Assembly (NCBI GenBank): GCA_964247055.1
Contig: OZ176050.1
Span: forward strand, 11,966,001-12,030,000
DNA from: Paragordius varius
Lineage: Eukaryota > Animalia > Nematomorpha
Direction of reading: 5' to 3'
Length of the DNA: 64,000 nt
Part shown: positions 8,201-48,080 of the stretch, piece by piece
How the letters are laid out: each line of letters begins with the position of its first letter
How positions within the stretch are numbered: position 1 is the stretch's first letter
Program-made: the position numbers and the translations under genes
Notes under the pieces: generated by a model
Database searches by the model: none
What the model saw: only the letters and a program-made list of their open reading frames with translations
What the model was told of the DNA's origin: nothing

Positions 8201-11200
8201 CAATCAATTAAGTTGTCCAACGAATATAATCTAACATTGTGCACATATAATTTTATAAAATGTTTTTTTATGATAAATGCTTTGAAAACTACAAGTTTAT
8301 CATACCTTATATATTTTCAGTATATATATTTTTAAAAACGTATTCATTGTTAAAATACAAAATAAATTTCCAGAATTTTTTTTAAAAACATATTTTAAAT
8401 AAAATTGTAATTATATTTGTAATAATATTCAAAGAAATACTTTGAATCTTGCGGGTAAGATGTAAATCTCCGGCTTTTACATTCATCTTTTAATTTGGTG
8501 ATCAAGCGTTGAGACATAGACCCCGAACATGATAAATACCATTGCGGTTTTTGCAAAGTTTCTAAGACATCACCAGATCGTTGACATAACAACACTGTGG
8601 TCGGGTAATTATAAAAACCTTGCCAATACTTACCCCCTTCGACACTATTGAGATTTGCATAAAAAATGAAATATAAATTGCAAGAGCTTCAATAATTGAA
8701 ATAATTAAACGGTTGTTTCACTCATAACACTGATCAACAAGGTTTTGCACCACCCCATTATTTTTGCATTTTCTGATACCTAATGGCATGGATAGGCCAA
8801 AGCAAAAAAGAAAATTGAGGCCACCAATAGGATTTTTCCAAAATTTAATTTTTAAATTTGTATTTAATTCAAAAATAACAATCATTCCTCGTGAGCATAT
8901 GTTTAAATATTCAAAGAAGCAAGTCGATACAAGTAATATCCATGCATGGATAACAAATTCTAGGCATTAAATAAGATACTAAACAAGATAAGAGCCAAAG
9001 TATAAAAAATCTAAAAGGGGCTTATGTATAGTGTGATAGATATGGGCGGCTGCACAAGCTCTGCATATCCCCCAAGCGATCATATAATTATGCCAGATAT
9101 GGCAAAGATAACTAATCGTAAAGCCTGATAAGAGAGACTTTCAAGCAAGATTCATGCAAATTGACATGTCAAATTAACCAATTGACAGAATAAAGTTAGA
9201 TAAATTCTACAATTAAATTGAATATAAATTAGGTAAATACAAATGGTCCAACCCCATAACAGTAAATTCTACTAAAAGTGGCTAAACAACATCCATCTGA
9301 AATTCAAAATCCAAAACAACCAATAATTTTAAAAAAATAAGGTATATCCACTAGGTATAAATAAAGAATTTTTTATAAGAACCAACTCAAGAGAAAAAGT
9401 CTAATAAGTACTCGAAACGAAAACTAACAAATAAATATAGCCTATCTGAAAGCCGAATGTTTAAACCAAAGAATGCCTCTTTTAGTATTTTTTAAAAAAA
9501 ATTTTATATGTGTTAAAAATTTACTTGAAAAAAAAGATTAAATTTTGACGTTTAAGTCCGTACTATTTTTTTCTCTCTGATATTTATGACATATTTATAT
9601 TCAAAAGATAGAGTTTAAAACGCTTTATTAAATGATATTAAGTTTATAATATAATAACATTATAAAGTTATATTTAATTTTCTCTCGATTTTCACTTGTT
9701 TTTGAAAAATTGAAAAACTTATAAAATTTCAAAATTCTGATTGGCGGGATCAAAATTTTTTCAAATTCGGTTTTAAAACACTGAAATTAGTCATAATTTA
9801 AAAAGTTTGAGTGGTGGTGCTTAAAAATGTCCAAATTTGTCGACTAGTATAATGAAACCCTTAGATTTTTTACTAAAAGCGCGTATATTGATTTTCGCAT
9901 ACCTTTTAAACAAACCAAATAGTAAAACAAAAATAATAATAATAAAATTTAATATTTTTAACAAAGTTTCCCAAAACAATTATTAAAAACCAATAAGTTT
10001 AAACATGAATTATTTATTTTTAATGAGGTTATGTCGAATAATGGGCTATGTTTTTTTACACACACAGGCGAGGAAATAATAAGGGTATACTGCAAAATAC
10101 ATATATTATTACTTTTCATATATAAAATAAATAAACTAAAATTATGTCAATAACAATTAACAAACTACTATACACAATCATACCTATTAAATCCCCACTG
10201 CATAAAAAAATACTCAAAACAGCCTTATCAATTCGTAAAATGGCAAAAGTTAAAATGGTAAAAAAATTAATAATATATAAGATAAACTACCCATATAAAT
10301 ATTCTATAATCTTTTCACGAGCATGGAAACGGTCTAAACCCGCTCCAAAATTTCCGTCTTTTATGGTTCCATCATTGTTCATTATACCGCATCCTGTTGA
10401 ATTTATGTTTTGAGGGGTATTCTTCAAAAAACCATTAGCTTTGAGATTTTGATAATCTTTACTATTCAAGAAACTTTGATAGATTTCGTAATCTAATGGG
10501 TCATGATCTGGTGATATTTTAACCACGCCTAAAGCAAAAAAATATTGATTGGAAAAATATATAAAACGAAAAATAGGAGTATTTGAAAAATTGTTTGAAT
10601 TATTAGAAATAAAACTTTGCAATGAATAAATTGAAATTTTAAAAATGCAATATGCTACATATATAAATTTATAATTCTGGTAATTTTCGTGAAGATATAA
10701 AAGTATTAAGTTTTAATTATAAATAGACTACGTTTTCTCCTGGTGTAGAAAATATGAAAAAACTGGAAATTCGGCATAAAATTTAAATTATGTATCTTGA
10801 CATTAAAAAACATAATTATAAATTAATTTAAAAACGAAAAAAGAAATGGGTTTTATCGATTCCAAATATACAAGACTTATAAAATTTACTTAAAAAATAT
10901 TTAATTTTTCAATTAATAAAATTAAAGTTATGAGTAATTTGTTCCCACAAAATTTAATCAGAATCTCTTCATATTTTTTTCGCAGATCTTTTTGTTTATT
11001 GATAGTCATTTATAAAACACGCTAAAAAGGTAATATTACCTGATCCTTTGGCAGGATCTACCCTGTCATCAAAAATGATTGGAAGCAAGATTAATTTGTT
11101 GTAGTAAGCAGATAAAGGATGTATAACAAATGTATTTTGTAGCTCGCTTACTGAATATCGTTCATCATAAGGATTTATGGCCAAGGCCATATCATTGGGC

Positions 11201-11638
11201 AAAGTTTCGGGTCGCGTTGTATGAACGCTTAAAAAGGTAACTGGATGCTTTTTCAGTTTTGAGTTATAATACTCATTCATATTGGTATATGGTTGATAAT
11301 GTTGATATTGATAGAGGGGATATCGTATTTCCCACATATACCCAAATGGGATGGATCTTTTTTCAACTACACAAAAAAGGGGCTTAAGACAAAGATACAT
11401 TCAATTTAAAAATGGAAAGATTCATTATGCATTTAAAAATATTAGAAAAAAAATGGCAAATGCATTGTTTTCGATATAAAAAAGGAATAAAAAAAAGTTT
11501 AATCAATAAAAGTTTATGATGTAATAAAATAATGATATATTTTATAAGGTGCTTTCAGGCCATATCTATGATATAAACCGACAAATCCCAATTTTCTCCA
11601 AAACATAATCCTGAAAAGCCCTTGTAAAGCATTACATA

Positions 11639-11675
<37 letters not shown>

Positions 11676-13274
11676 CTATCATCTTTATTTATATATAAAT
11701 TATTTTTCGTGTCAAAAAATACCTGTTATAAGGTATAATACATCTATACCTTAAATTTTTCAAAAAATTTAATTTATTACCGTAAATCATAATTTGTGCG
11801 TTGTTTATTTGCTTTCATCATGGTAAGAAATAAAAATCACCTTTATATGATTTAGAGGTACTATGGATATCATTCTTTTTGAACTCATTCCCGGACTGTG
11901 TCATGATTGGTATGTTAAAATAAGTTGGTGAGGCGTCCACTTTAATTCGCGTCGTTTCCAAATCCGAAACGGCCGTTTGAAGAAAAGGACTCCAATTAAC
12001 AAAACGATTAGCTCGATAAATTAGCCTTTTTTCATCATCCAGTTGATTATTTAATCGATTAAAGGCTTGAATAACAGTACGTTTAAAGTTGTCATCTAGC
12101 GTATAGGGATAATCTGAACCGGCATACACATTTTTATTATGGTTGCTGTGAATCATCGTTGATGTAGTCACGACGTTTGATTTTTTGGGCCAATCTAGGA
12201 ATAAACCCAATTGCGATAATTGGTTAGATATTTCCGCGCATTTACGTTCTTTCCATGCCTCACAGTGTTGGATAAAACGGTGACGACCCAAACTTATTCG
12301 ATTGTTTCCAATATTATTTTTGTCATCAATTACATCATGCAAAAAAGCATTTGGTGAACTATTAGCAGCAGAGGATTGTAGCGACTGACTAGAAGATTTT
12401 TGAGGTGAGATATCATTACTAGAATCGTTCCTTAAAGTAAATTTGGATGTTTGATTCAAATATTGCTCCACTTTAACTTCCGTGGCTATGCCAGCATGAT
12501 CAAAACCAGGGACCCAGTGAACTTTGAACCTAAAATCACATATATTTTTGTTACAATAGGTTTTTTAACACAAAATAATATTACTTATTTCAATTAATTC
12601 CATTACTAAATTAACGGTATTATATTTTTGTTTCCTTATTTTAGCAAATTATATAAGGACATAAATTTAGTTTTTTAGCTAAAAATGGGAGATCAAATTA
12701 ATAATCAAATAAAGAATAAGAAAAGGTAACGAATAAAAAATGAATTAAATATTTAACCATTACAATCTATCTATTCAAATTTACCATGTCTCTTATATTA
12801 CATATTTTTTTATCCCTCAGTTTTACTTAACTTATATTTGAAGACATTTATATTTTTTATTATTTTTTTAGTGTAGGCACTCATATACCCCTGCATAAGT
12901 CTTATCCGCACAATAGTGTCTTGAATGTAAGCAGTCAAAGCATGTCCCAAATGTAAATTCCCTGTAATATTTACGGGTGGGAAACATAATATGTATGGCG
13001 CATCCGTTTTAGTTTTTTGCTCTTTTGAAACATTTTGATCACAGCTTTCCGCTAAATTACCAAATTTGTCATTTATAATAGTGTTGGTTTCGTAATAGGT
13101 TGAATTGTTATTGAAATAATAGTTTTGCCACATCTGACGTATTATCGGTTCGATATTTTGCGGTTTGTAAGCCCGATCAATGGTTGGGGGTAGAGTACTT
13201 AAAAATGTAAGCGATGTTTGACAATTAGCTCCTATATTTGTAAAAAGGCGAGACGGTACTGTTTTATACAACAT
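2270..13274 (-). CDS. VARS2: Valyl-tRNA synthetase, probably mitochondrial (VARS2-like); 12 exons, about 1185 aa
   Basis: Exons 13274-12889, 12529-11841, 11366-11040, 10528-10291, 8644-8441, 8230-8124, 7534-7068, 6714-6585, 6306-6181, 5787-5662, 3458-3195, 2763-2270. All introns are GT-AG and phase-compatible; total 3558 nt. Motifs: [15 protein letters not shown] (HIGH), [64 protein letters not shown]. The N-terminus ([12 protein letters not shown]..) is presequence-like and has no GST-like domain, so the mitochondrial call is inferred. Confidence 0.93.
3516..5376 (+). mobile_element. PIF/Harbinger DNA transposon with a decayed DDE transposase, in ValRS intron 10
   Basis: TIRs GGGC(C/T)TGCTGAATAAAA at 3516 and 5376, with 3-bp duplication ATA on both sides. 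Broken frames give [58 protein letters not shown] and [21 protein letters not shown], which are HARBI1/DDE_Tnp_4-type motifs. Confidence 0.9.
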
Positions 13275-13325: not shown

Positions 13326-14219
13326 TCAATCTTGTTGAATTATTAGGCGTGTAGTTAAATCTGAATCAAAATCATTGCTATTTTTATTGGGTGAAAATTT
13401 AAATTTTGGGTGATTTGGTAAAAAATGGATGTGATCATCTTCACTATCGTAATCATTATCGTCTGTCGTGTTTAAGTCATTGCCCAAATGAGTTTGATTA
13501 GGAGAACTTTGAAGTTTTGTATTATGCTTTCGAGATTGTTTAACATGAGGTTTTTTGTATATCATATGATGGCTCATTAACATATCGTCTATGACCCAAA
13601 ACATGAGTATGTTTATACATAAGGGAATAACAAGTACAACAAGGGCAACTTCAATCTTCGGATTATTAATGGGGACAACTAAATAACTAAATGTATTCCT
13701 CCAAAATCTGAATTGAATTAAGATGGTTATCAAAATTTTTTCGATGAGCATAATAAGCAAATAAATTAAACATTGATGAGCCCAAGAATGACAAGAGGGC
13801 GGTTTACCATAATCACCAATTTTAACTGTAGTCCAACTCTGAGCACGGGCCAGATAATGAAAGACGCGAAGTGAGATAAAAATAATGAGAAGCCCAATGG
13901 TAGAATCAAGTAAATAATTTGTAATGTACCAAGAGCATGGATCTCCAATAAATAAATCTGATAAAAATATATTGACAAAATGAATAAAAAGAGCACCGAT
14001 GGCTTGTTTAGATGTATCAAAAAACCAAATAATCCAGGTACGTCTTTCGGCCGGTGGCTCAAAAAATCGTTTTATAATAAGTGAAGCAAAAGCGACAAAT
14101 CCTAAAATTGATTGAACAATTAAGCCGTATGAATCTGTTAAGGATCCGTGGGGACAATGTGAAAAATCATTCTTGGTGGTAAATGCATTATGGATAATTT
14201 TGGTTGTGCCATTTACCAT
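13326..14219 (-). CDS. STIMATE: STIMATE/TMEM110 multi-pass membrane protein, intronless, 297 aa
   Basis: Single ORF with LTDSYGLIVQSILG, ERRTWIIWFFDTSKQAIGA, DPCSWYITNYLLDSTIG, GDYGKPPS..W..Q and MFWVIDDMLM, followed by an acidic low-complexity tail. This is the TMEM110/DUF3661 pattern. Confidence 0.92.
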   Translation of the reverse strand: MVNGTTKIIHNAFTTKNDFSHCPHGSLTDSYGLIVQSILGFVAFASLIIKRFFEPPAERRTWIIWFFDTSKQAIGALFIHFVNIFLSDLFIGDPCSWYITNYLLDSTIGLLIIFISLRVFHYLARAQSWTTVKIGDYGKPPSCHSWAHQCLIYLLIMLIEKILITILIQFRFWRNTFSYLVVPINNPKIEVALVVLVIPLCINILMFWVIDDMLMSHHMIYKKPHVKQSRKHNTKLQSSPNQTHLGNDLNTTDDNDYDSEDDHIHFLPNHPKFKFSPNKNSNDFDSDLTTRLIIQQD

Positions 14220-15229
14220 TTTATTTAAGGAAATTCATATTTTTGGCAGCGTGGAAACTACTCAAAAATTTTGCATATGTATTTGACCAGATATCACAAA
14301 ACATATGAAAAAATCAAAAACCATCAATTAAAATTTTTTTCCCTTTGAATAATTACATGAGAATATATGATATTTTTTATCCGAACCTCCTAACCTGTAA
14401 AAAATATTATCAGTAATAACCCATTCAACTTAATATATAAAAAATGTAACCATTTTTGAATGGTTCGATTAAAGTTAAGCCACTTTTATCAGCCGGTCAC
14501 CTAACCCCACTGCCGGTGTAAATAGGGTTAAAAAAAAAGGTCGAAAGTCATGTTTTTGATTCCTCAAAATAGCACTCAGATCCAAAAATGAAGAATTATA
14601 ATTATTAATAAAGATCAAAAGGCAAATCTTCTTTTTAAGGCCCTTCTCTTAACCCAAAATTATTTCTTTTAGAAAACTAAGAGTCTTAAAATTTTAAGCC
14701 ATTTTTCTCAGATTATTAGAATATGCAAAATTATTAATGGTGTCACGTTTTCTCCGTAAAAACGCAAAAATTTTATATAAGCGTTTTTTGGCCACTGAAT
14801 AAAGTTTTATCTTTTGTATGCGCCAGTATGCAAAAAATAAGCTTAGATCCGAAAAATCTATTATTAAAATATAACACTGGTTTAAAATCTGGAGGTACTA
14901 AAATATCCTGTTCATATATATATATATATATATATTCTATAGGATAATTAATCAGGATTATCACAATGGTTTTGGTTTTGGTCCATAAAAATGATTTAAG
15001 AAAGTATTTACGCTTTTTTTAAGTACTCATATCAGAGAATGACCGAATTTGCGCACAGTTTTTTAAATAATTTGGTAAAAGCTAGAGACTTTATTCCAAA
15101 AATTATTACTAAAATAATCATAATTCATGGGAAATATAGTCAGGTTCCCCCTTATTACATCAATGTCGAAAAAAATTAGTTCGGAACGAAAAAGTGGTTT
15201 TTGATATAGAATATTAATTATAAATATAT

Positions 15230-18532: not shown

Positions 18533-21500
18533 TTAATGTTGCTCGATCGTTCCATTTGCAAGTTTCCCGTTAGGACAATGTCCATTTTTAAGGGGAGAGC
18601 CTTTTCCCTTAGAATCATAAGGCAATTGGACTTCTGATTCCGTCGTTTCAACATCATCGTCAGAAGAATGATAATACATACCATTGCCTATGTGAGGTTT
18701 TCCAATCCAAGATGATTCATAGTTATTGGCGTCTGAAATAAAGCAAATAATTTTTGAAAAAATAATTTATTATAGATTAAAATTGTTTTTAATTACATTT
18801 GGTGAGAAAAAGTTGCGTTTGATTAAATATACAGTCATTTTAGTAATTTAACAATACATTTCAAATAATCTTTAACTATTTTTACTCTAAATATGAATAA
18901 TATTTTATTTAATTTATAGTGGAAAAAAACCTGAGCTTAAAATATTGTTGTTTGGAACAATTGATGGAGATTTTTTTGGTGAAGAGTGATTGCTTCCCAT
19001 GTTTTCCATTTTAGCTGTAATTAAGGTCATATCCCCATTTTCTAAATTAAGGTGCTGATTTCTCTGTATAAATAATTTTTGAAAAAAAAACATAATTAAC
19101 ATATATGTTTTGTTAAAATCTAAATAAATATATATTGAAACATTTTCAGTTTACAATATAGAGATTTTTTTAAAAAATAATAATATTTGATCCTTGACTA
19201 TATCAATGTAACCTAAAAGACAATTGTAAAATATGTTATTTAAGTGGGTTACCAATTTACATCTTGACTTGTTATTTGACAAATGAAACATATTAAAAAA
19301 TCAACGTTTATAATATGTGGTTGCTTTATAAAAAAATATTATTCTATTAGCTTATATTTTTGCCTTAATTTTTTACTGTGTTTGACAATAAATTTTTTAC
19401 TTTAGGGAGTATCAATTTCGCCCAATTTTATTTTTTAAATGGAAACTTAAAATAAACAATAATTGAATTGAATTAGAGCAATAATAGTGTAACCTTTGTA
19501 AACGTGTAGATTAAAACAAAACATTAAACTAATCAGAAAGTAGACACAAAAAACTGTTTATAACATAAAAAATACCAATTTAGGGCACACAGACGGGGCT
19601 GGAGGTAAATATTCTGTAAATGTTTCCTCTTCAAAATTAGTTTTATTCCCTCGTCGATCAGGTGATTGGCAAGATGATTGTGTGCTATATTCGGCATTTG
19701 TGACATCTCTCAAAGAATTGATTTGGGATTCTGAATCACTCCAATCATGATCTCCACATTCGTTGGGCGCTTTTGTTAAAAAATTAAATGTTAAACAAAA
19801 ATAATAACAAAATACAATTTTATCATTTATTAAATGCCTAATATTTGAAAAAAAGGTAAATAAAATGACAGGACTGTGACTTAACTTAAATCGTGGAAAA
19901 TGAAAGGGAAATTAGAAAGGGTTTATTCGTATTTCAAAGAATTTAAATAAAAATTTTAACAAATTTGAATATAATTGGAAGTCATTTATATCATAAAAAA
20001 TTATAAAACAATAATTATATTTATATATTTAAAAAAAAGTTTTCTAAAAAATACCATTCGGAGTATTTATTCTCTCTTCAAGCGATTCTCTTCCATCAAC
20101 ACATTTTGGGTTGAGTTCATGATCTTCGTAATTACTATCGTAAGATTCGGTCGTTTGGTCTGGCCCCTCATCATTATAATCTGGTTCTGGACTTGAAACT
20201 ATAATTATTATTATTTTTGATAATTTGCCATGTGATTTATGAAGATGTTAAATTATTTTATTAGACATAAAAATGTGTATCCATGGTATAAATAAATATT
20301 ATAGAGAATATAATTCAAAATAAAAAACTAAAAGGGTTTAAACAATCTTTATCATATAAAAATAACTTGACTCCCTTTAAAGGTAAAAATTATATTTTAA
20401 AATCATGCATTGTATACTCATTATTACTATATTCGTTGAAATAAAAATATGAACAAAAACAAATATTCTATTTTAAATCAACCAAATAAAGAAAAAATCA
20501 TAATTAAAAAAAATATAATGCAAAGTATATGAAATAAACCTCTTTCCTATATATGTTATTTAATTTAAACTACATTCACAATATTTTTAGAGCTAACAGT
20601 TTAAATAATACCAGTCAATTTAAACGAAGGACTTGCACATTCCTGTTTTTGCTGCGTTAATGATGCACCGCTATTTAAAGATTCTGAAAAACTTTCATTT
20701 TTCAAGGCACAATCATTATTCTCAATGGATTGTTCTAGTTGATTATCCATTGTAATCTGTTGTGGTGATAAGCATTTAGGCGAAGTTGAAATTTGTTTCG
20801 AAGGTGAGGCCAAGGGAGATGTACAGAGTTGTTGGGGTGAAACGGTGATTTTTTCGCGGTTGTTAAAGCTCTGTTTTGTGGTTGGAGAATTTGTGGCAGT
20901 CCTAGAATGTAAAAATTTTATTGAGTCACGTATTTTAAGTTTTTCGGGTATGTATAATTTGATAGGAATATATTAACGCTCGGTGATAGTTATTTAAAAC
21001 AATGAATGTATTCATTTTCTAACTAAAACTTAACGATATATTTCCTTTTTCACCATATTTTAAATATAAATCTCGGTGCTTGATAAGGCGAAATATATTA
21101 ATAAATTAAAACAAATCTAGATGTTAATCCAGTCATATAATGAAAAAAAGTCCACAATAAAGTAACAAATAGAAAAATATCAAGCTATGTATATTACTTA
21201 GATAAGATGTATTTGATACCAAATTAATATACTTATTACATGTATTATCATCAAGCTTTTTTAAATTATATTCTCTTTAACATATAAGAGTGTTTCGATT
21301 TTGACCTGTCTTATTTAAACGCCATTATCGCAAAAAGTTATAAAAACAAGCTTTATTCAAAGCTCTATTATAAAACCACACTTTGCTTGGAAATTTAATC
21401 AACTCTTTGCCTCACCTATTTTCCCATGTAGCTTTAACATTATTAACGTAGGACATGGTTTCTGAAGAGTTTGATACAGACTTATCAGAGGTTACTCCAT

Positions 21501-22539
21501 TTATACTGCTGGCACCACCATTAGTTGAAGAAAAGATAATGTGTTGATTGGCCCCTGAAGATATTTGATGTGATCTAGGCGTCAATTTATGTGTAAGGGG
21601 TGATGTGTTGTCGTTAGTGGGTGATATACGGGAACTACCATTTGTTTTAATATGGTTGTTTTCTTTTCCTTCATTAGTGAGTGGGATTGGACTGGTGCTA
21701 GATTTACCGTTCATTGCTGTAAAAATTAAAATTACGTAAAGATGAAACGTGTAAAAATCAAAAGACAAAAATTTTGTAAAATGAATTTTTTTAACCTTTA
21801 TTTTTTAAATATTTATTGCTTTTGGTTGCAAAATAAAAAAATTAAGATGTAAATTAGTAAAATATATAGTTTATGCAGGAAGAATCAAGGTTTAAAAAAG
21901 AATGGCTCATCTTTTGTGAAAAAATATCCCCTATAAATTTTTACGTTATGTTGTTATAATATAATTTTTTACAGTATTACAGTGTGCCTAAATATGCATT
22001 GCTAGTTTCCCATTATTTATTACCCATACCAACTTACAATAAGAAAATTGGCTTAAATTTTGTGCTTACAAAAATATGTATTTTTGAGTCTTTTTTCAGC
22101 CATTACTCTTTAAGTGCTATCCGAAAATGTCTAACGAAAACTAGCGATGTAAAATTATTCCATTTACATCGCCAAATGTAAAAAAATGACAAAACACCGA
22201 TAAATTTTAATGTAGGGTAAGAGATTATAATAGAACATGAGTGATAAGGGAAATAAATACAATAAAGAGATGGTTAATCACATAAATAAATGTCATGCTG
22301 AAACATGAAAATCATGTTAACGTTATTCAGTAGATTTCCATCAGGAATTAAGCAAACTTTATAATTTTTATGCCTTAATTTTTTATTTATTTTAAGTATA
22401 ATCATGCTTTTATATGATTTTTAATTGTATGAAAACTAACAAACTTAATTAATCACTTAACAAAATTATCTTATATACTATGATTAATGGTAAAAAAAAT
22501 AATTCGTGAGTTTTTCATTATTGCCAAAAATTTTGATTT

Positions 22540-22599
<60 letters not shown>

Positions 22600-25500
22600 G
22601 TTAAAAACTGGTGATTTTCGTGATGTTTTTGTCGGAGAATCTGGGATGGGAGATTTGATCCCTGAAACCATTGATGTATCTAGAAAAAATACATAGAAGA
22701 TTATTTTAATAAGATTAAAAAAGAGCGTTTATAAATATTTTTATATATGTTATCTTGGTAAGATAAGGAGATAATATAAAAAATGTGAATTTTTATTCAC
22801 TATAGCAAGCTTATTTTGTCTTTCATTTGAGTCTTCAGTCATTGAAGCTTTTTGTAATGCCAAGGATACCATTTCCCTTACATGTGTCTCCATTTTTGGT
22901 AAAACTTTTGTCATATATTCTGTTATCATCTTTTCATATCTTCTATTGAGCTCATTTGTGAACCATTCTCCTTTAGAGGCAGGTGATGCTCCTTTGGCAA
23001 GATCTTTCATACTCTAGAACCATCAAGGAAGAAGATATATTACCTGGGAGTGAATATTCATCGTTGCAAATATGGAGAAAGTTCTTTTATTGTGATTGGG
23101 CTAAGGCATTAGTTACACAAATGTTATTAGTTTATAAACATTATCATATCCAAAGTGTTACTTTTGCTTGCTCAATATTAGGATTAGGTGATGATTTTTT
23201 GAAATCAGCAGGATACGTTTCGCAAGAAGAGCTTAAGAAGTTATATGATGCTAGCAAAAGGATTGATGGAAGGCCGTACATAGGTATGATAAGATCACAG
23301 GAGCATGATCTCCAAATCAGCAATTTTCCTAGATTATGTTTATTAGGTATAAACTATTTCAAGAAATGGTCTTCTTCAAAAACTAACACATGGAATGCAT
23401 ATAATGTTAGTTCTATAGACAGATTTATTTCTTCTAATATGGATAAAATAACATGTGAAAAATTGGTTGATGTTTTCCCAACCACAGGGGATCAATTATA
23501 TAAGAATTTTGCAAATTTACTGACAGAAGAGGAATTCCTTATGAGTTTACCAGACAGGGATATTAATAAGGAAAAGCTTTTGAATAGAATTTACAATTTA
23601 TGTTTGAAAGATCTTGCCAAAGGAGCATAAACTGCCTCCAAAGGAGAATGGTTCACAAATGAGCTCAAGAGAAGATATGAAAAGATGATAACAGAATATA
23701 TGACAAAAGTTTTACCAAAAATGGAGACACATGTAAGGGAAATGGTATCCCTGGCATTACAAAAAGCTTCAATGACTGAAGACTCAAATGAAAGACAAAA
23801 TAAGCTTGCTATAGTGAATAAAAATTCACATTTCTTATATTATCAACTTATCTTACCAAGATAACAATATACATATAAACAAAAGGAATAAATTATTTTG
23901 TTAACGCATTTTTTCCAAAAATATATAATAAAACGTAAAACAAAAAATTAATATAATATTTTTTTTACTATTTTCCAAATCTCGAGGTACATTTCCTTCA
24001 GCAGTATTTGAAATACCGTTATTTTTGTTAATTTCATTACAGGGTAAAATATTTTTAGTGTTTGAGATGGATGTTAAGAAATCGCGACCCATTAAACAAG
24101 CAAAAACGGTCATAACCATTTTCGGTTTAACTTCAACAATATCATCGGGTAAAGCATAAATTTTAGCACCAAGTTTTCTGGCCATAGATATGGCATATTT
24201 CGCATTCTCGTATTTGGCCTAAATTGCAAAAAATATGTTGTTAGTGTAATTTTTTAATAAAACTCAATATTTTTGAAAATCTTTGACATTAGATTTACCT
24301 ATAAAATGAAATGTTCTTAAAATTCATTTATTAATTTAAAGCAGTGCTATAAACTCGATGAATATATTAAAAAAGGTTTGAAAAAATAAGACATTATCTA
24401 TATATAATCATAATTTTTTTTTCTAAAAAGTTTCATAAAAAAAATATTCTTTTTTTGCATTTTAAATCACTCGTATTTTTGAATATTTATTTTATATTAG
24501 GTCAATACGGTTAGGGTTGTTAAATACGTAGATAATAAAAGTGAATGTATAATATTTAGCCTAATCGTATAGAAAATTATAAATCCAAAATATGATTTAC
24601 TCTATAAAAAACAAATCTTTTACTATTCAAATTGAAGCCATTTTTATAAAAACTTAACATTTTATGTGACTTATCTTTTTGAAATTTCAAATTTTCAGCA
24701 AATATATTAATATAAATTTGTTTTGAATAAAACCTCATCGCTAAATCCTTCTTTGACTTGTGTATAATCAACGCATCCCTTCTTTATTGAATCAATGAGA
24801 TCTAATACGACAACTCCATCAGAGATTGAGGAATCTTGAAACGAGGATATGCTCGTTAATTTGCCATTTTCTTTTAACTGTTAATATAATTCATATTTAT
24901 GTTAAAGAAATTTAACTTAATAATAGTTAAGAACCGGAACCGGGTTTCAAAAAAGTTTTTTGAATTTTTTGCTTCAATTTCATCTTTTTTTGTCAATGAG
25001 TTATATTTTCAGTTGCATTTTTTGTAGTATAGTAAAGCCAAAAAGCATATAATCAAAAAATTTCGAGGAATTTCAAGATAATAAGATATACTTTGATAAA
25101 AAATAAAAGAAAATAATATTAAGGTTAACATTAAAAAAAATAAAATTTAAATTATATTTTTCTTAAAAAGTTTATTATTCCGATTCTCCTTCCAATCATT
25201 AAAAAACTCCTTCAAAACAATTAAATTATCTTATATAAACTGTTAAATTTCCAAAATGCATAATTATTTAGGAAAAAAATGGGTTTTAATATATACAAAC
25301 TTTTTGATTTGCCCATTGAATAATTTCTTTTTCGCCCATGGGTGTAACACCGGCTTTCCCGTTTGAGGTAAGGTTACAGAGCAAACTAAGTGTATAAGCT
25401 CGCATAAGTTGCCACACTAATGCTATATTTTGGCAATGAAAAGATTATGATTTAGGTCGGAGATACAAGTCTTTAAATCAACTTGAAAAAGTAAAAAATT

Positions 25501-28500
25501 GTCATTTATAGTGTCATTTTTATTTCTTTATTTAACATAATAAAGTTGTGAAATAAAAAATTGAGAAGGTAAATCTCTATTTACATCTCAAAATTGCAGC
25601 GTAAATACATATACCATTTACAGTTCAAATTCACCCTTTAACAATTCAAATTTACCCTTGAACAATTCAAATTCACCCTCGAACAATTCAAATTCACCCT
25701 CGACCAATTCAAATTCACCCTAAAAATAAGTTAAGTGTTTTCAAACTAAAATAACTCATTATTAATAAGAAATATATTTTTATGGCATAGTTTATTATTT
25801 TTTCAGTATTATTTTAATTTAAAACAAAATTTTTTATTTTTTAAAAATATATAAAAATATTGGTAATTTTTAATTTAAAAACATATATTTTATTTGAGGG
25901 TTGAATTGTTTAAGGGTGAATTTGAATTGTTCAAGGGTGAATTTGAATTGTTTAAGGTTTGAATTGTAAATGGTATATATTAAATAGAATCTGCAATATG
26001 GATGCGCATATAAAAAAGGCATATTTTTATAGGGTTTCCAACTAGACAAAAAATTTAAACTCTTATTTTTTTATGCCCTTAGTTTTCAATTTTAGTGGGA
26101 TTTTTATAATTTTTAAATTTTGCCAAAAAACCAATAACAGGGATCATAATTTTATGGTCCAAAAAATTAAAATAAAACCAATTAATTCAATAAAATATAA
26201 AATTTGTTTATGCACAAAAACCTAAAGTTAAAGTAGCATTCCCATCATTTATGTCTTGTCCTGCGATACCAACTAGAGAAAAGCGCATTCTTTGTTTTCC
26301 CAGACTTATGGCGTAATTGCAATTCTCAATTTTTTCCATGAAACCACACAACTTGCTGAAACGTTTATGCACTATTTTCCAATCCACCGTTCCAGGTTTT
26401 ATGATATCATATAGCTATAAAATATTGATTGATTTTATAATCAGTGCTTATTTAGTTTTAATTGATTTTCACTAGTACATTATAAGACCTCGTTTCAAAT
26501 AAGGTCAAGCTTTTTATATTAATAAAACACAGTGCATGGCTAGAAAAAATCTGTTTTCTCAATTCAAAACATCCCCAACCTTATCATTGGTGGGCCTTAA
26601 AATGCAAAGTAACATATTTTTGTGCGCCAAAAATCTGATATTAAAATTTAAAACCCCTTCGCATTCATATTAAGCATGGTTTGGATTGATAGTTTTTACG
26701 TGTTTATTTAGTTAGTTTTAAAAAACTAAAAAATGTTTTATAATTATTTATGCAGTCGACTGTGTTGCATAAAAAAATAAAATAATAAAGAACGAAAATG
26801 GACCAACTCGCCAAAACTATGGGCAATATTTTTTAAAATCCCTAATAATGATAATTTTTAGTACCTTTTATTATAATTTATAATGGATATATTAATAAAA
26901 AAATTAAATTACTTGTAAAATGACAAGTCCGTCACACAAATCACTGTAAAGCCAATTAACGCGTGGAGATACTCCCATACTATTCATCCAATTACGGTAT
27001 GCTTTAATATTTATAATTATAAAAATAGGTTAGTGAACATATTAAAATTAATACTAAAAATGAAAAAATATATGTATTTTTTATAAAACTGTGTATTAAA
27101 TTTCAAAAATCTTAAACAATTTTTTCCATCCGCGGTAAAAATTTATATTAAATTCCGAGATTTAACAACTATTTTTGCGCAAAAATATGTAAAAAAAAAC
27201 TTTGATGCCAAAATAGCCCACAAAAATGGTTAGACTGTAACTTTATATTTTTATAATTAGCAATTTTTATAATCTACTTTTCTCTTCACGCGTTTCTTCA
27301 ATCATAGACTCCTGGATTAATTCGGCTTTTGTGCCATTTTCTTCGATAAGCAGTCCAGGGTGTGAATTAAACATATTAGCTACGAATGCAATGTTTAGCT
27401 TGTAATTTCCATTGATTACATCGCGTGGTGACACAAAAGCGCGACACCGAATTTTATCAGCTTCCCGTAACATAAGTTCCGCCCTACGTTCTAAATCACT
27501 TTCCTATGAATAAAATAAATTACATATTAATTATTTAAAAATCCAATATAATTATGATAGGGCGTAAAATATAGAACCTGTAAAAGTTTGTTTATAGATC
27601 CGCAAAATATGCCATTTATTTAATACTATATGATTAGAGTTTGCTTAATATAAGAGATACCCTCCTGTACCTATTTTACAACCACCCTAACTTTCCAGAA
27701 ATATTGGCTGAATAAAAAAATCATAATTATTACCTAATTGTGTCTATATATTAGAAAAATTGTACTTTTGATTTACAAATTTACGCCTAATATTTTATCC
27801 AACATGTAATGAAAAAAATACCCGTAAACCGGATAAATTGATGGTTTTGTCTTTTGATGCTATTTGATGGATCAAATGAATGTAAGCGATCGAGTCCTGT
27901 AAAAATACCATAGATGTAAAAAACAATAAAACAACACTAACTCCGTAAAAATATAATTAAAATTGTCCCTAAAATGGAACCTGGAAATTAGTTAATTAAA
28001 TAAAACATTAATATACAATCATCATATAATGGAAATTTCGTTTCTGTTAACAAAAAATATTAATGATTTATATTTTGGCATAAATGATATTTACAAGATT
28101 CATCAAAAAAGATGGTTTGACGAAATACAAAAAGGTATATTCCGTTCATAATTTATCTTAAAAAATTTAATAAAACATCCAAATATCTACTGAGCCAATA
28201 AAATTTTACCATAATATCACTGGTAAAATTAGCAATCTGGCGATCACACCCAGCATTTGCTAAATGATAATTAACCCAACGGAGTAGAATGGCTTCAGTC
28301 GAAAGTTTCATCATATCTTCAAGTTTTTCGCCTTCATGCAACAATTTAATGAGACCGGGGCAATGTTGTAAATCCACTTGATTAAAGAGACCAATCTATA
28401 AAAAGAAAATAAAGCACACACATAATAAGTACCATCTACATGTTAGTAATTTTTATCAATTTCGTTACCGATTTTGACAAACTAGATGGATTTTTAAGGT

Positions 28501-31500
28501 TATAATCGGCTTTTTTGAATATAAAACTGGTTTTAAATTACCTGAATAACAAATTAAGTCTAAAGATGATTTATTTACCAGGAAAAATAAAAAATTATTG
28601 ATTAACCCGTCAATACCATATTTCAGTTTGTTATTTTTAATTTATTCTTCCATAATGGAAGCAATAAGTATCTTAAAAATTAACAACCAATCTCTTATTA
28701 TATTTCAGAATTCTTAAATTTTATACACAAAAAAGCCTCTTTAAATAAAATAGTTTACTCTAATAATTTGCCACAGTAGGCCCAAAACAAGGTGTGGTTT
28801 CCCCTTGGCCAAATCATCAGCTCCAATGTTAACTACGTTACAGCCTATGGACATGGCTGAGTTTATGCCAAGCACTAAATTCTCATGTTGCGTGTAAACG
28901 TTAAGATTGCGTTTATTAAGGACACGTTCATCAATCGTATCAGGACAGGAAAAGTTTATGATTTTACTGTTTAAGGAGAAGTGAGTGATAAAAAAATGTT
29001 AAAAAGTATATGTAATTAATGGCATAATATACCATTTACAGTTTGAATCCACCCTTAAACAATTCAAACCTCGAACAATTCATTTACCCTCAAATAAAAT
29101 ATTATTTTTTTAGGATTAAAAATTACCTATATTTTTATATGTTATATTTATATATATATATATAAATATAGGATTTACAACTACGTGTAGATTTGGAAAA
29201 TTAAAATTGTGTTATTAGTGATTTTTTGACATATAATAAAAAAATTTTACCATAAACAAAAATACACAAAGAATAATAAAATATTGGGTAAAACGTTTAA
29301 ACAGGTTATTTGAAAAAATATATTTTATGATATTATTTAATCTTTACCATTTCTTTACCATTTTTAAACCTAAAATAATCATTCATAAATAATCATGATA
29401 TTCCACTTATAAAAAGTGCTAATGCAATATTTTGCTGAAAATTCTCCATAATAATAATATTTTGCCAGGATAGATAGATAAATAGCAAAATAAATTACCA
29501 TAAAAGAATGCCATCTTTGACTTTATCGTACAGATCATGACCATCCTGATCGATAGGTAAAAGATAATGTAAATCATTGTCTAAACCCAAATTCCTGAAA
29601 AAATAATATACAATGATATGTAAGAATTATAAAAAAAGTATGTAAGATTGTTGTTTTGAGTTCCAATGAAATTATCGATTCAATATTTAGCTAGAATTTT
29701 TAAATTTTTAAAAATTACTTAAGTTAGAATTTGAAATGATATTTGGTCATTGCATGATGAGATACTCAAAATATCATTTTATTTAAATTTATTTGGCCAT
29801 AAATGCAATTATAAAGCCAATTATAATTATATTTAAAAAATTAAATAAGAAAATCATCTCCTTATTTTTATACATCTATATAATAAAAAAACCCGCAACT
29901 GGTAAAAATCCTTCAATAAATTAGTTGAATTAAAACAGTATCAAAAACATTCAAAATGGATAACTTACAAAAGGATTAAAAATTTTACGTGTTAATCCAA
30001 TGGGAGAAAGCCACCTGTTCTTCTTGTCGGATTGTGTGAGTAGTTCCTTCACTCGAAGTTTCTGACATGCCCCCATGTGTAACCAAGTTATCTTTGCGTG
30101 AAACCATAGATTTAAAACTTGTGGCAAATTCTTTCGATTTAATATCCCGATATAACTAAATGTAAATATAGTAGATATTAAAGTATATGGTTTTTAAAAC
30201 AAAATTTGGTTATCTGGTATAAAATACCCTTAAATAACCAATTATTATGTTAATATATTAAAAAAATAATTTTATGGAACCGATTTAACACATAAGCACA
30301 TTTTTAAAAAATGTCACACTTTATTTGGAATTTTAATGCATATGCAAAATTTATTAATAGGTGATAAGTCAATGTACTCAACACAGCACAACTTAAATGT
30401 GTACAAAAATCAATTTATTAGACAGGGAACTATGCTTAATCACGATTAAGGTGTATGCATTTAAAAACACCATTAAACTTAAAAACACATTTATTTAATA
30501 TTTTTTTAATAATTTCAAATCCAATGATTGTACATATATTTGTATTAGTCTATTCATAATTTTTTTCAACCACATCGAAAACAACAAAGAAACTCTTAAT
30601 TATGTATAATGGTGAAATACTAAACATATGGTAAATTTGATAAAATTTTCCAATTTTATATACGACCTTGAAAATGTGGCTAAAATATTTTATTAAAGTC
30701 AATATTATTATGGTCAGGTGCAAATATTACGTTTTACAACAAACAAAAATTCTTTTTAGTATAAAAAACCGACACGCTTGCCAAAAAGTATGTTAAAAAG
30801 CTATGACACATACAAAATTTTGTTATCAACAGGGATGAAAATAAACACAATTTTAGTTTTCTGCTAATAAAATTAATTAGATTTTTTAGCGTTAGGGGTT
30901 TTAGTTAAAATTGGTAAGTTCCGACAAAAAATTTGCAAAAATCCAAGCCTTGTGGTTAAAAAAGTGCCCAATAAATGTTTAGCATCAAATTTAAGTAGGT
31001 TGCCAACTAATATGATTAAATATTGTTCTTAACTGGTCCTAAAAAATATCAAACTCGGGATTATTTTATATGCTATATATTACTGTTTGATTTCAAGTGA
31101 TAATTGATATTCATAATGATAAGTAGGATTGTAAATACGTGTAATATTGAACCAAATTTATACTACAATCAATAGACATATTTATATTGGTACCAAGCAA
31201 CAGAAACTATATTTAATTATGTTGTACAACTTGCAATATCAAAGTAAAAACCATATTAGATAATCTCATATAAAGAAGAGTATATCTGGTTAATGTTTAG
31301 AAAATCCCTGTATAATAACTTTATCAAATTCAATTATTATTATACACATTACCAATAAGTAAGTAAAAATACCATAAAATTGTGGTCTTTTATGAAAAAC
31401 AGAAAATATAAAGACAGAGATAATCTTAATTCATTTATTTTCCTTGGTAGAAAAAAGCATATTTGTGATTCCATTCAGCAGCAATAATTATTCTACTAAT

Positions 31501-38780: not shown

Positions 38781-39618
38781 TGTCTGTACAGGTTAAAAAA
38801 CACGTGTTAAAAAGAGTAAGTACTTTTCATATGAATAAAATATTTAACAAAATAAAAAATAAATATATTTCAAACGTGAGCCGATGGTTAGTAATATATA
38901 ACTTAGGTACTGAGTATTCAAAAAAATTTTTTTAAATGCTAATGCTATTAAATAAAATATTCATTCTACAGCCTTTCCCTTGCATACACACAAAAAATTG
39001 GGATTAGTGACACATGCTAAATATAACTTAAGAAATTATTATCCATAATCTTTATAAATATTTTTAGTAAGATGTTGTTTGTACTAAAAGCATTTTCTAA
39101 TATCCTTAAAACGGAAATTTTTATAAAGTACGTTTTTTCCCATTCGTATAAGTCTCTAGATTGGCATCGATTGTTTATATGTTGTAATAACTTTCTTAAC
39201 AATTCTTTACATTTTAGTTTGTACGCGATGATATTTTGGTTTAGTTTCCTGTGCATTAGCTAAATAAAAGATGCCAAATACAACCTTTCTGTTTATAAAA
39301 TTAGATGGTGATTTAAATAAAATTAAGCTATAATTTTAGTGTTTGAAATAAACTCGATATAATTTCAAATGTTGCAAAATAAAAGTGGTGGACTAGTTTA
39401 TTTAAAACCAAATTTTATTTAGATATTTTGGTTCATTTAAAAAAATTATATTAGGATAGAATCATATATTATAACCGTTTCTTTCAGTAGTATTTAAATA
39501 ATATCAATTTAAAAGGACACAAAGAGAGTCGAAATCGAATTCAAGTGTTAATTATATTTTACATTTAAATGAAAATAACACAACATTTTGCTATATATAT
39601 ATATATTATCCTGTATAA

Positions 39619-41322
39619 CATTTCGAAAATTGTGCATCTAAATACCCCCGACTAAATTTAAGTTAGGATTTTTAAAAAACTACGGAAGAAAACGGTCCCA
39701 ATTTTAATTTATGCATCTATTTAAAAAATAATAATTATGCTAAAATATCTAAATTATTTGTTTTGAAAAAAAAGTTCCATGTCAAACTACTACGACGCCA
39801 TTTTTATTTTACAAAATTTTTGCATCGTCTTGATTTATTTTTAAGGGTAAAATTAACACTTTGATTCAAATTGGGGTATCTAAATACCCCAGACTAAATT
39901 TAAAATAATATTTTTAAAAAACTACTGAAGGAAACGGTCCCAATTTAAATTTATGCTTCTATCCTGATAAATATTATATAAATATGCCAAAACATATTGA
40001 TAAAATTTTGTTATGAACAAAAAGCTCCATGTCAAACTACTTCGACGCCATTTTTATTTTACAAAATTTTTGCAAAATATCGTCTTTATTTAATTTTAAG
40101 GGTAAAACTAAAGCTAATTTTTTATATAATTACATCTAACATTGATAGAAATAGAAAAAGCGGTTTAGTTTGTATAATTTTTCAATTTTACAATTTGACA
40201 CATGTCACGTTGACGAAATTTTTACCTTTCGGTTTTAGCTTAAAATAAGAAATATCAAGTATTATTGAATAAATTTTTTTATATATTTCGGTTTATTAAT
40301 GTTAGATGAGTGCAAAATTTTGCCATGGTTTCGATTCCTTCTATATTTTTTAAAGAATGCAATTTTAAACAGGCCTGGGGTATCCAACTACCCCAATTTG
40401 AATCGAAGGACTAAAATGAGTGTGTTGTATCCAAGTGTTAAAGCTAATTTCTTATATAAATTACATCTAACATTGATAGAAATAGAAAAAGCGGTTTATA
40501 TTATTTTTTTAATTTACCATTTCACATGTCACGTTGACGAAATTTTTACATTTCGGTTTTAGCTTAACACTTAAATACAACACATTCATTTCAGTCCTTC
40601 GATTCAAATCGGGGTAGTTAGATCCCCAGGCCTGTTTAAAATTAATTTTTTTAAATATGGAAGGAATTGTAACAGACAAAATTTTGCACTTATATAACTT
40701 TAATAAAGCGATATTTATAAAAAAATATATTCAAATACTTGATATTACTTATTTTAAAATAAACCAAAAAGAAAAAATTAGTCAACGGGACATGTGTGCA
40801 ATGGTGAATTTGAATAATAATGCGAATTAAACCGCTTTTTCTATTTCTATCAATGTTAGATGTAATTTAAATAAAAAATTAGCTTTAATCTTACCCTTAA
40901 AATTAGATGAAGATAATATTTTTTAAAAAATTTATAAAATAAAATTGGCGTCGAAGTAGTTTGACATGGAACTTTTTTTCAAAACAAAATTTTATTTAGA
41001 TATTTTGGCTTATTATTAAATTTTTAATTGGATAGAAGCATAAATTTAAATTGGAACGGTTTCCTTCAGTAGTTTTTTAAAAATATCAGTTTAAATTTAG
41101 CCTGTGGTATATAAATACCCCAATTTGAATTGGAGTAAAATAAGTAATAGTATTGTTGAATAAAATTTTTTATATATGGTTTATTTATGTTGTATAAGTG
41201 CAAAATTTTGCCATGGTTTTGATTCCTTCCATATTTTTTATAAAATTTAATTTTAAACAGGCGGGTATCCAACTACCCCAATTTGAATCGAAGGACTGAA
41301 ATGAATGTGTTGTATCCAAGTG
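39619..41322. mobile_element. Three nested copies of a piggyBac-like MITE of about 580 bp (TTAA target)
   Basis: The host copy runs 39619-39856, 40442-40567 and about 41139-41322. Insert Y is 39857-40437 (same orientation, TTAA on both sides). Insert Z is 40568 to about 41135 (inverted). Ends are CACTT..CGATTCAAATTGGGGTA, with a short spacer at one end and a 27-bp spacer at the other. Confidence 0.8.
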
Positions 41323-41539
41323 TTAATTGGGTAAACATATGTTTATGAAGTAACTAAATTGAGAATAAAGGTTTAACACACTGATTTTTTATTGGTTTAA
41401 TTTGAATCTTCAAAAACAAAATTTTACAATATATACTATAATACTTTTAGTTTGAAATAAAAAACATATAATTTTTTAAATATATATTCCAAAAAATATC
41501 ACTAAAATATATGATAAAGTACCTATATAAAGCAAAATA

Positions 41540-47697: not shown

Positions 47698-48080
47698 AAC
47701 CATTTACAATTCAAATTCACCCTTGAACAATTCAAATTCACCCTCGAACAATTCAAATTCACCCTCGAACAATTCAAATTCACCCTTGAACAATTCAAAT
47801 TCACCATAAAAATAAATTATGTGTTTTCGGGCTATTATAACTCATCATTAATATAAATATAATCTTATAGCCAAGTTTATTAATTTTTCAGTATTATATA
47901 TATTTTACAGGAATTTTTTTTTTTTAAATATAAAAAATATAGGTAATTTTTAATCTTAAAAAACACATTTTCTTTTAGGGTGATTTTGAATTGTTCGAGG
48001 GTGAATTGGAATTGTTCGAGGGTGAATTTGAATTGTTCAAGGGTGAATTTGAATTGTTTAAGGGTAATTTTCAATTTGCT
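47698..48080. mobile_element. MITE family A copy
   Basis: ACCATTTACAATTCAAATTCACCC followed by five 21-bp units, the interior, then inverted units. Confidence 0.8.

What the first reader, a model, noticed from the sequence alone, without database searches (positions are those of the whole stretch)
22748..23866. Endogenous viral element with the topology of a copy-back defective viral genome
Seen: arm' (22748-23009), a unique 595 nt (23010-23604), then arm (23605-23866). The loop and right arm form one continuous reading frame; the left arm is an inverted copy of only the terminal 262 nt (about 9 differences). Known: negative-strand RNA viruses make copy-back DVGs in which the polymerase copies from a genome end, detaches, and copies back along the nascent strand, giving terminal stem, loop, complementary stem. 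Defective genomes have been reported as preferred templates for viral DNA in insects. Inference: the protein resembles a qinvirus-like nucleoprotein, and in these bisegmented viruses that ORF occupies its own segment, so its 3' end lies at a segment terminus where copy-back stems arise. The arms end in a small hairpin, TTATCTT-ACC-AAGATAA, possibly the viral terminal structure. This may be a germline fossil of a copy-back DVG, which I do not know to have been described.
Basis: partly seen in the sequence, partly recalled or inferred. Interest (0 to 1): 0.9.

Follow-up and report, generated by a model that had tools for sequence, protein, structure and literature searches.

The report
Viral gene hairpin with transposon ends
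In an intron of what is likely a horsehair worm, a broken piece of an RNA-virus (artovirus) nucleoprotein gene forms a 262-base inverted repeat capped at both ends by a multi-copy host repeat, so it was likely copied and inserted by the host's own mobile-element machinery rather than being a fossil of a viral copy-back genome, and it would form double-stranded RNA when the host gene is read.

Summary
The structure is real: 262-nt arms (8 mismatches) round 595 nt, with the inner junction bridged by contigs from two studies. The frame carries one stop. The protein is viral but not qinvirus-like: it is the C-terminal half of artovirus ORF I (best E 3.7e-19; pairwise 4e-15 to Beihai rhabdo-like virus 2), and a relative folds as a mononegaviral nucleoprotein. 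Artoviruses are unsegmented (about 12 kb) with ORF I first, and the arm stops about 50-110 codons inside that gene, so it is no genome terminus. The outer 42 nt are a host repeat (depth 16-79 times the flanks in 4 of 5 runs, other flanks seen), ending TG...CA with a 5-bp duplication. A longer, near-identical copy runs on past the junction. The copy-back DVG reading fails. Best reading (0.5): retrotransposon reverse transcriptase joined an LTR end to viral mRNA, an inverted product was integrated, and a central deletion left this allele. Rival (0.33): a Ginger/TDD-like element with a DNA-level inversion. It lies in a plastin intron of a likely nematomorph; antiviral siRNA output is untested.

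The parts
22743..22747 (+). Left copy of the 5-bp target-site duplication
   Evidence: Same 5 bases at 23867-23871; 4- and 6-bp tests fail; this 5-mer makes up 14 of 1999 positions of the flanks
22748..22789 (-). Left copy of the 42-nt multi-copy host mobile-element end (starts TG, fits TGTNR); holds the small hairpin at 22750-22766
   Evidence: Depth at 22780 is 14,655 (X1), 13,532 (X4), 1,651 (X5), 95 (X2), 9.5 (X6); high depth ends about 19-21 nt into bin 22766-22808; other flanks before 22748 in X2 and X6
22790..23009 (-). Left arm, viral part: inverted copy of 23605-23824
   Evidence: 5 differences from the right arm in 220 nt
23009..23010 (.). Arm/loop junction; a longer near-identical copy of the loop sequence continues upstream from exactly this point
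   Evidence: Bridged in X1 record 3 and X2 record 10; loose ends before 23010 in X1 (255 letters or more) and X5 (45 letters, record 19)
23010..23824 (+). Fragment of an artovirus ORF I (U1, nucleoprotein) gene, matching residues ~305-560 of 600-700-aa relatives; broken
   Evidence: phmmer 41 hits at E<=0.001, best 3.7e-19; pairwise E 4e-15 to Beihai rhabdo-like virus 2 protein 1
23010..23604 (+). Loop, 595 nt, single in the window
23605..23824 (+). Right arm, viral part
23628..23630 (+). In-frame stop in the right arm
   Evidence: X2 record 13 shows no difference there
23825..23866 (+). Right copy of the 42-nt host mobile-element end (ends CA)
   Evidence: Protein homology stops at residue 282 = nt 23822; X1 loose ends before 23825 show non-viral, A-rich sequence inward in other copies
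23867..23871 (+). Right copy of the 5-bp target-site duplication
21717..24016 (-). Predicted GT-AG intron of a plastin/fimbrin gene that holds the element
   Evidence: Donor at 24016, acceptor at 21717; the two exons join in frame; upstream exon matches plastin-3, E 2e-21 and Pfam CH. Splicing not shown by RNA.
24017..24218 (-). Plastin exon with the last CH domain (its upstream edge not determined)
21412..21716 (-). Predicted last coding exon of the plastin gene
   Evidence: Open, in frame with the previous exon

Best explanation
The element is a broken fragment of an artovirus nucleoprotein gene, present as an inverted repeat capped at both ends by a multi-copy host repeat (TG...CA, 5-bp duplication), and it was likely made by an LTR-retrotransposon's reverse transcriptase and integrase and then likely shortened by a deletion. 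Steps: (1, shown) the cargo is artovirus ORF I, cut inside the gene. (2, shown) the outer 42 nt are host repeat, the same junction on both arms, so the inversion came after virus and repeat were joined. (3, inferred) the 42 nt are the 3' (U5) end of an LTR: tRNA-primed strong-stop DNA copied U5 and jumped onto viral N mRNA, giving N sense followed by ...CA. (4, inferred) the cDNA folded back on itself, so that both ends carried an integrase end and could be inserted with a 5-bp duplication. (5, inferred) the first insertion had longer arms; the window's allele lost the centre and most of the left arm, leaving arm-loop-arm. (6, predicted) read within the plastin pre-mRNA it forms a 262-bp stem; most likely it is now a neutral fossil.
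For: Viral identity. Host end: depth 43-79x (X1), 32-70x (X4), 16-18x (X5), 18-35x (X2), 2-5x (X6) over flank contigs; homology stops where the deep part starts. TG...CA and TSD are LTR hallmarks (PMC10741241). LTR-like context in other copies: a TGG-starting, PBS-like stretch two letters outside the CA end in 1 X6 contig and in the X2 cell (2 contigs, agreement 0.63) (chance of TGG within 0-3 nt 0.04); inward, A-rich sequence with a poly(A)-signal-like hexamer in 2 X1 contigs. Longer-armed allele: in sample S3, contigs run unbroken from the end through the arm into the loop (X5 record 18; X4 record 19) and unbroken upstream across 23010 (X5 record 19), while both flanks of this site join the end (X5 record 17; X4 record 22); arm depth 169 is near left 93.5 + right 105. 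In X1 the junction contig has one-haplotype depth (190) and the longer copy two (336). Virus-LTR chimeras are shown in insect cells (PMC5857290; PMC6797480).
Against: No LTR pair, PBS, RT or integrase gene is in the window, and no genome is held. The PBS reading rests on 1 contig plus a mixed cell, its tRNA was not identified (no tRNA gene in the window), and both could be one ordinary insertion site. Depth of contigs is not copy number, by the tool's own warning; one-armed copies at other loci give the same depths as a long-armed allele here. No contig spans the element. A one-haplotype contig in X1 has 52 letters starting near 23826 at this site, which may mean an allele with the end but no viral interior, as the rival predicts. 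Differences between the arms are uneven (left agrees with the other copies at 5 of 5 viral positions, p 0.06; 7:1 positions with the end, p 0.07; 5:1 events, p 0.22), where one fold-back event predicts an even split. The strong-stop jump onto viral RNA is recalled from LCMV-IAP work, not read here.
Confidence: 0.5

Rival explanations
1. A non-autonomous Ginger2/TDD-like DNA transposon with ~42-nt terminal inverted repeats inserted here (5-bp duplication), carried or later acquired the artovirus N piece next to one end, and a DNA-level repair event (template switch or gene conversion from the other end or another copy) replaced the left interior by an inverted copy of the right end.
For: Ends fit TGTNR; Ginger TIRs are 40-297 bp; Ginger2 prefers RTATAY and TDD-4/5 make 5-bp TSDs (PMC2836005); the site before insertion reads as RTATAY with a 5-bp duplication. 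Both flanks join the end in sample S3, which lacks a break at 23010. Possible non-viral allele in X1. Left arm closer to other copies than the right arm is. Other fold-back repeats occur in the window.
Against: No transposase seen; animal Ginger2 elements make 4-bp TSDs, and the 4-bp test fails. It does not explain the PBS-like and poly(A)-signal-like neighbours of the end, and it still needs a reverse transcriptase to make the viral DNA. No second TGTNR element with this end in the window.
Confidence: 0.33
2. One reading: germline fossil of a viral copy-back defective genome whose stems are the segment terminus.
For: Stem-loop-stem topology, viral origin, no homology needed at the junction (cbDVG junctions lack it, PMC11077978); DVGs are templates for viral DNA in insects (PMC5857290).
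Against: Relatives are unsegmented artoviruses with ORF I at the leader end; the arm ends inside ORF I, about 10 kb from the trailer where cbDVG stems arise; the outer 42 nt are a multi-copy repeat in the host's DNA runs with other flanks; a near-identical longer DNA copy crosses the junction point.
Confidence: 0.03
3. Assembly artefact (chimeric fold-back read or mis-join).
For: Inverted duplications can arise in amplified libraries (general knowledge); no listed contig spans the whole element.
Against: All four junctions are bridged by contigs, the inner one in two studies; the arms differ at 8 positions and X2 holds both versions (records 10, 13). One of the holders may be the window's own sample.
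Confidence: 0.01

Closest known systems
Artoviridae ORF I / U1 (Beihai rhabdo-like virus 2, PpNSRV-1, LsNSRV-1, brine shrimp artovirus 1) and artovirus-derived EVEs
   Same: Sequence homology over ~260 residues (21-27% identity); relative P0002 matches five artovirus proteins by fold, E 1.8e-27 to 9e-21. Artovirus EVEs are reported in Hymenoptera (10.1101/2022.11.16.515002, passages).
   Different: Only the C-terminal half, broken, inverted-duplicated and capped by host repeat ends; host is likely a nematomorph, not among the hosts in the ICTV profile.
Virus-LTR retrotransposon chimeric vDNA and LTR-flanked EVEs of Drosophila and Aedes (PMC5857290, PMC6797480)
   Same: Viral RNA sequence joined to a retroelement-like end; TG...CA and TSD.
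   Different: Only ~42 nt of the element, present inverted at both ends, not as direct LTRs; LTR identity is inferred.
Ginger2/TDD DNA transposons (PMC2836005)
   Same: TGTNR ends, inverted termini in the 40-297-bp range, AT-rich target, 5-bp TSD as TDD-4/5.
   Different: No transposase; most of the inverted repeat is viral coding sequence; animal Ginger2 make 4-bp TSDs.
Intronic inverted-repeat pararetroviral siRNA areas of tomato (TSAs; PMC9868043)
   Same: Viral sequence rearranged into an inverted repeat inside a host intron, able to fold into a long hairpin.
   Different: Here an animal and a non-retroviral RNA virus; siRNA output is shown for TSAs, untested here.
Copy-back defective viral genomes of Mononegavirales (PMC11077978)
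   Same: Stem-loop-stem topology.
   Different: Stems here come from inside ORF I plus host repeat, not from the trailer.

Membership tests
Artovirus ORF I-derived EVE | Sequence homology to artovirus ORF I | tested here: met
   Pairwise E 4e-15 to Beihai rhabdo-like virus 2 protein 1; library E 2.8e-6 to it, best hit 3.7e-19; names
Artovirus ORF I-derived EVE | Mononegaviral nucleoprotein fold, nearest to artovirus proteins | tested here: met
   Tested on relative P0002 (pLDDT 84): top 5 viral matches are artoviruses; top 10 solved chains are mononegaviral N, Z 13.1-9.4, best rmsd 4.4 over 269 residues. The window's own reading folded poorly without alignment (pLDDT 40).
Artovirus ORF I-derived EVE | Placement in Artoviridae by the L polymerase | not testable with these tools
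   No L sequence in the window; no genome held
Artovirus ORF I-derived EVE | Integrated in host DNA | tested here: met
   Joined to intron flanks in contigs of X1, X2, X4, X5
Qinviridae nucleoprotein | Nearest relatives are qinvirus segment-2 proteins | tested here: inconclusive
   No qinvirus among 3 virus-named clusters of 30 looked up or the 50 Foldseek rows shown; absence from a list does not exclude, but the positive matches are to artoviruses
Copy-back DVG | Reverse-complementary ends round a loop | tested here: met
Copy-back DVG | Stem is the genome terminus (trailer and L end) | tested here: not met
   Arm lies inside ORF I; 11 of 13 relatives extend 49-110 residues beyond it; ORF I is the first of five genes
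Copy-back DVG | Sequence wholly viral out to the ends | tested here: not met
   Outer 42 nt are multi-copy with other flanks and other interiors
LTR retrotransposon end (U5) chimera | TG...CA termini with a short TSD | tested here: met
   hallmarks in PMC10741241
LTR retrotransposon end (U5) chimera | Primer-binding site just after the CA end in family members | tested here: inconclusive
   TGG-starting stretch in 1 X6 contig and a mixed X2 cell; tRNA not identified
Intact or solo LTR retrotransposon | Two LTRs as direct repeats | tested here: not met
   The ends are inverted; no direct repeat of the end in the window
LTR retrotransposon end (U5) chimera | Helper with gag, RT, integrase | not testable with these tools
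   No genome held
Ginger2/TDD transposon | TGTNR termini, TIRs 40-297 bp | tested here: met
Ginger2/TDD transposon | 4-bp TSD of animal Ginger2 | tested here: not met
   4-bp test fails, 5-bp fits as in TDD-4/5
Ginger2/TDD transposon | Integrase-like transposase in family members | not testable with these tools
   None in the element; no genome held
Intronic hairpin EVE that yields siRNA (TSA-like) | Inverted viral repeat inside a host intron | tested here: met
   256 of 262 arm positions pair in the predicted fold, perfect runs of 81 and 82 bp
Intronic hairpin EVE that yields siRNA (TSA-like) | siRNAs from the arms | not testable with these tools
   No small-RNA data on hand

The most novel reading that the evidence does not exclude
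A retrotransposon's reverse transcriptase and integrase turned an artovirus nucleoprotein mRNA into a snap-back palindrome with an integrase end on each side and inserted it into a host intron, creating in a horsehair worm a natural, inherited intron-hairpin RNAi cassette against the N gene, the gene whose dsRNA lowers artovirus levels in wasps and lice; alleles with different arm lengths would show it being trimmed in populations.
Probability: 0.15. Interest if true: 0.85.

Novelty: new variant of a known kind. Interest (0 to 1): 0.55.

Why it matters
It is likely direct evidence that artoviruses infected nematomorphs, more than once: besides near-identical copies, contigs 81-85% alike differ mostly at third codon positions (16 of 19 listed in X1, p 7e-6). 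It shows a route by which a non-retroviral RNA-virus gene gets integrase-type ends on both sides and a target duplication, and it leaves a ready-made 262-bp hairpin in a host pre-mRNA, which makes 'EVE as inherited siRNA source' testable in an animal outside insects. It also warns that arm-loop-arm EVEs are not copy-back fossils unless the stem maps to the trailer. As a by-product, artovirus U1, listed as of unknown function by ICTV, is predicted to have the mononegaviral N fold.

Tried and rejected
Pfam: 0 of 3 viral pieces and 0 of 28 relatives matched. Word-based protein search found nothing for the window's reading and only P0002 itself for alignment A2. PDB sequence searches gave no useful hit. 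Viral contigs: no relative; the alignment had no conserved stretch to search with. The Atlas gave no usable hit for P0002; the window's own reading has no Atlas result. Single-sequence fold: pLDDT 40, not used. Foldseek on PDB: no match at E<=0.001, though the best rows were N proteins. The 20-nt end in metagenome contigs gave 1 locus, L001, a cyanobacterial-looking contig with a 23-nt match and no related protein: chance. Rfam: only the TA microsatellite. No tRNA in the window. No RNA holder listed and nothing laid from the one RNA-labelled run tried, X11: no evidence on expression either way. No joint for an empty site was listed in the 6 runs laid of 15 listed; absence in contigs proves nothing. 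Earlier findings: nothing in 3 look-ups. Rows dropped: alignment A2 used 33 of the 41 hits (left out: P0038 and P0041, repeat-like multi-stretch hits, and six proteins under 350 aa); names were looked up for 30 of 41. Against a purely viral family: 2 clusters are annotated in Daphnia and Cherax, and one Cherax member is named 'probable RNA-binding protein 46'; I read these as EVEs. P0003 and P0004 end 8 and 0 residues beyond the arm end. PMC3118150 and PMC2912400 held none of the terms sought.

Full report
Observation. The loop and right arm share a frame, but it is broken by a stop at 23628-23630. The element starts TG, ends CA and has the same five bases on both sides; four- and six-base duplications do not fit, and that 5-mer fills 14 of 1999 flank positions. 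G+C is 0.31-0.33 inside against 0.19-0.23 in the flanks. It is real DNA: of 15 runs listed I laid 6. The inner junction 23009/23010 is bridged without a difference in X1 and X2 (two studies), and X2 also bridges the two outer junctions and the loop/right-arm junction, stop included. One holder may be the window's own sample. No contig spans the whole.

Host and site. The element lies in a predicted 2.3-kb GT-AG intron (24016 to 21717, minus strand) about 150 nt from the donor; the flanking exons join in frame and the upstream one matches plastin-3 (E 2e-21). A neighbouring gene has its best hit in Gordionus (62% identity; next rows 41-49%), so the host is likely a nematomorph.

The protein. 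Read with X at the stop, the frame found 41 relatives at E<=0.001 among 1.84 billion representatives, 6 at E<=1e-10, best 3.7e-19. Most are 600-700 aa and match over their residues ~305-560. Of 30 clusters looked up, 3 carry virus names (Beihai rhabdo-like virus 2 protein 1, brine shrimp artovirus 1, Mononegavirales sp.), 2 are uncharacterised Daphnia and Cherax proteins, and 8 lie on contigs of 11.5-12.9 kb. Pairwise E to the Beihai protein is 4e-15. The best relative, folded with 33 of the 41 hits (pLDDT 84), matches five artovirus proteins at E 1.8e-27 to 9e-21 and then other mononegaviral nucleoproteins; against solved structures the top ten are all mononegaviral N (Nipah N, Z 13.1, rmsd 4.4, 269 residues).

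Why it is not a copy-back DVG. Artoviruses are unsegmented, about 12 kb (PMC7011699, whole text); ORF I is the first gene, nt 153-2015 of 12,230 in PpNSRV-1 (PMC5344506, passages; the same order in LsNSRV-1, PMC6394706, passages). Mononegaviral copy-back stems come from the last ~200 nt of the genome (PMC11077978, passages). Here homology ends at residue 277-282 in the longest matches, and 11 of 13 aligned relatives continue 49-110 residues further (the other two end 8 and 0 residues on). The arm end is inside the first gene, some 10 kb from the trailer.

The ends belong to the host. Depth at 22780 is 43-79 times that of flank contigs in X1, 32-70 in X4, 16-18 in X5, 18-35 in X2 and 2-5 in X6 (summed contig depth is not a copy number). 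It falls at about 22787-22789, where protein homology starts. Other contigs carry this end with other outer flanks (X2, X6) and other, A-rich interiors (X1, X2). Both arms have the same virus/end junction, so the inversion followed the joining. Two families fit TG...CA with a short duplication: LTR retrotransposons (PMC10741241, passages) and Ginger/TDD transposons (TGTNR, TIRs 40-297 bp, Ginger2 target RTATAY with 4-bp TSD, TDD 5-bp; PMC2836005, passages). For an LTR 3' end: a TGG-starting stretch two letters beyond the CA in 1 X6 contig and a mixed X2 cell (chance about 0.04), a poly(A)-signal-like hexamer inward in 2 X1 contigs, and the orientation (N sense, then CA) that a strong-stop jump onto mRNA would give (mechanism recalled). 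For Ginger/TDD: the ends, the target and the lengths all fit, except the 4-bp TSD of animal Ginger2.

Other copies and alleles. A near-identical copy goes on upstream from exactly 23010 (X1, 255 letters or more; X5 record 19); that this is more of the N gene is inferred from the ~300 residues that relatives have upstream, not tested. In sample S3 (X4, X5) contigs run unbroken across 23010 and from the end through the arm into the loop, which I read as no short-hairpin junction in that sample; yet both flanks of this site join the end there, and arm depth (169) is near the sum of the flanks (93.5 + 105). In X1 the junction has one-haplotype depth (190) and the longer copy twice that (336). The simplest reading is an allele at this site with longer arms, from which the window's allele arose by an off-centre deletion. 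One-armed copies elsewhere give the same depths, and an X1 contig at this site that begins near 23826 may be an allele with no viral interior, so this step stays open. The left arm agrees with the other copies at all 5 viral positions where the arms differ (p 0.06; 7:1 positions with the end, p 0.07; 5:1 events, p 0.22): a weak hint against one fold-back event. Arms differ by 3.1%, the loop from X1's copy by 1.5%. More distant copies (81-85%) differ mainly at third codon positions (16 of 19 listed in X1, p 7e-6; 5 of 6 in an X5 variant), while the near copies do not (4 of 9; arms 2 of 5): several viral lineages entered this genome, and the near copies drift.

Mechanism. Best (0.5): LTR-retrotransposon RT joined a U5 end to artovirus N mRNA, the cDNA folded back so that both ends were integrase substrates, it was inserted with a 5-bp duplication, and a deletion made the present allele. 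Virus-LTR chimeras are documented in Drosophila and Aedes cells (PMC5857290, PMC6797480; passages). Rival (0.33): a Ginger/TDD-like element with a DNA-level inversion. Copy-back DVG 0.03, artefact 0.01; the rest is for mixed histories. Either way the plastin pre-mRNA would carry a 262-bp stem (256 of 262 positions paired in the predicted fold, perfect runs of 81 and 82 bp). Whether it yields siRNA is untested; intronic inverted viral repeats do so in tomato (PMC9868043, passages), and dsRNA against ORF I lowers artovirus RNA in wasps and lice.

Novelty. Artovirus EVEs (10.1101/2022.11.16.515002, passages), virus-LTR chimeras and hairpin EVEs are each known. I found no paper on a copy-back EVE, on an RNA-virus gene between inverted mobile-element ends or on nematomorph artoviruses (10.1101/2023.11.03.565523, passages, names the phylum once without such a result); these were listings from an open-access library, and no supplements were read, where EVE tables may hold such cases. 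Verdict: new variant of a known kind, interest 0.55.

Noticed in passing
P0002 model m35df19b33dd9: Artovirus ORF I, listed as unknown function by ICTV and said to share no features with known nucleoproteins, is predicted to hold the mononegaviral N core at residues ~148-459, plus an N-terminal alpha/beta domain (~13-155) and a C-terminal helical bundle that were not matched to a family. No Pfam model covers 28 of 28 relatives tested.
   Followed up: partly
window 22929-22992, 23070-23165, 23280-23337, 23583-23685 (laid contigs): At least two further, diverged artovirus N-like lineages (81-86% alike) in the same host runs, with differences mostly at third codon positions.
   Followed up: partly
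clusters of P0013 and P0018: Uncharacterised Daphnia magna and Cherax quadricarinatus proteins are artovirus ORF I relatives; the Cherax ones lie on a 31.8-Mb contig, so likely EVEs.
   Followed up: no
window 39616-41326, 41492-42245, 60854-61627: Older fold-back repeats (inverted matches of 64-82% over 750-1290 nt); the first has a further partial copy at 52500-52984.
   Followed up: no
window 25609-25978, 29027-29143, 44042-44375, 47693-48077, 56558-56873, 59640-59919: A dispersed MITE-like family with inverted arms built of 21-nt tandem units.
   Followed up: no
window 21412-21716 (-): The plastin gene has a predicted C-terminal extension of about 120 residues, rich in S, N and T, beyond the end of human plastin-3.
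   Followed up: partly
runs X2 and X6: The window's DNA occurs at low depth in runs labelled as other organisms (B, C), which would fit a parasite inside sampled hosts (inference).
   Followed up: no
window 22543-22597: A (TA)n microsatellite 150 nt left of the insertion; contigs break there.
   Followed up: no
window 2270-13274 (-): Multi-exon gene that looks like a valyl-tRNA synthetase with long insertions (label recalled from motifs, not tested); a single-exon STIMATE/TMEM110 gene follows at 13326-14234.
   Followed up: partly
L001 2998-3020: 23-nt exact match to the element's right end in a cyanobacterial-looking contig; no related protein nearby, treated as chance.
   Followed up: yes
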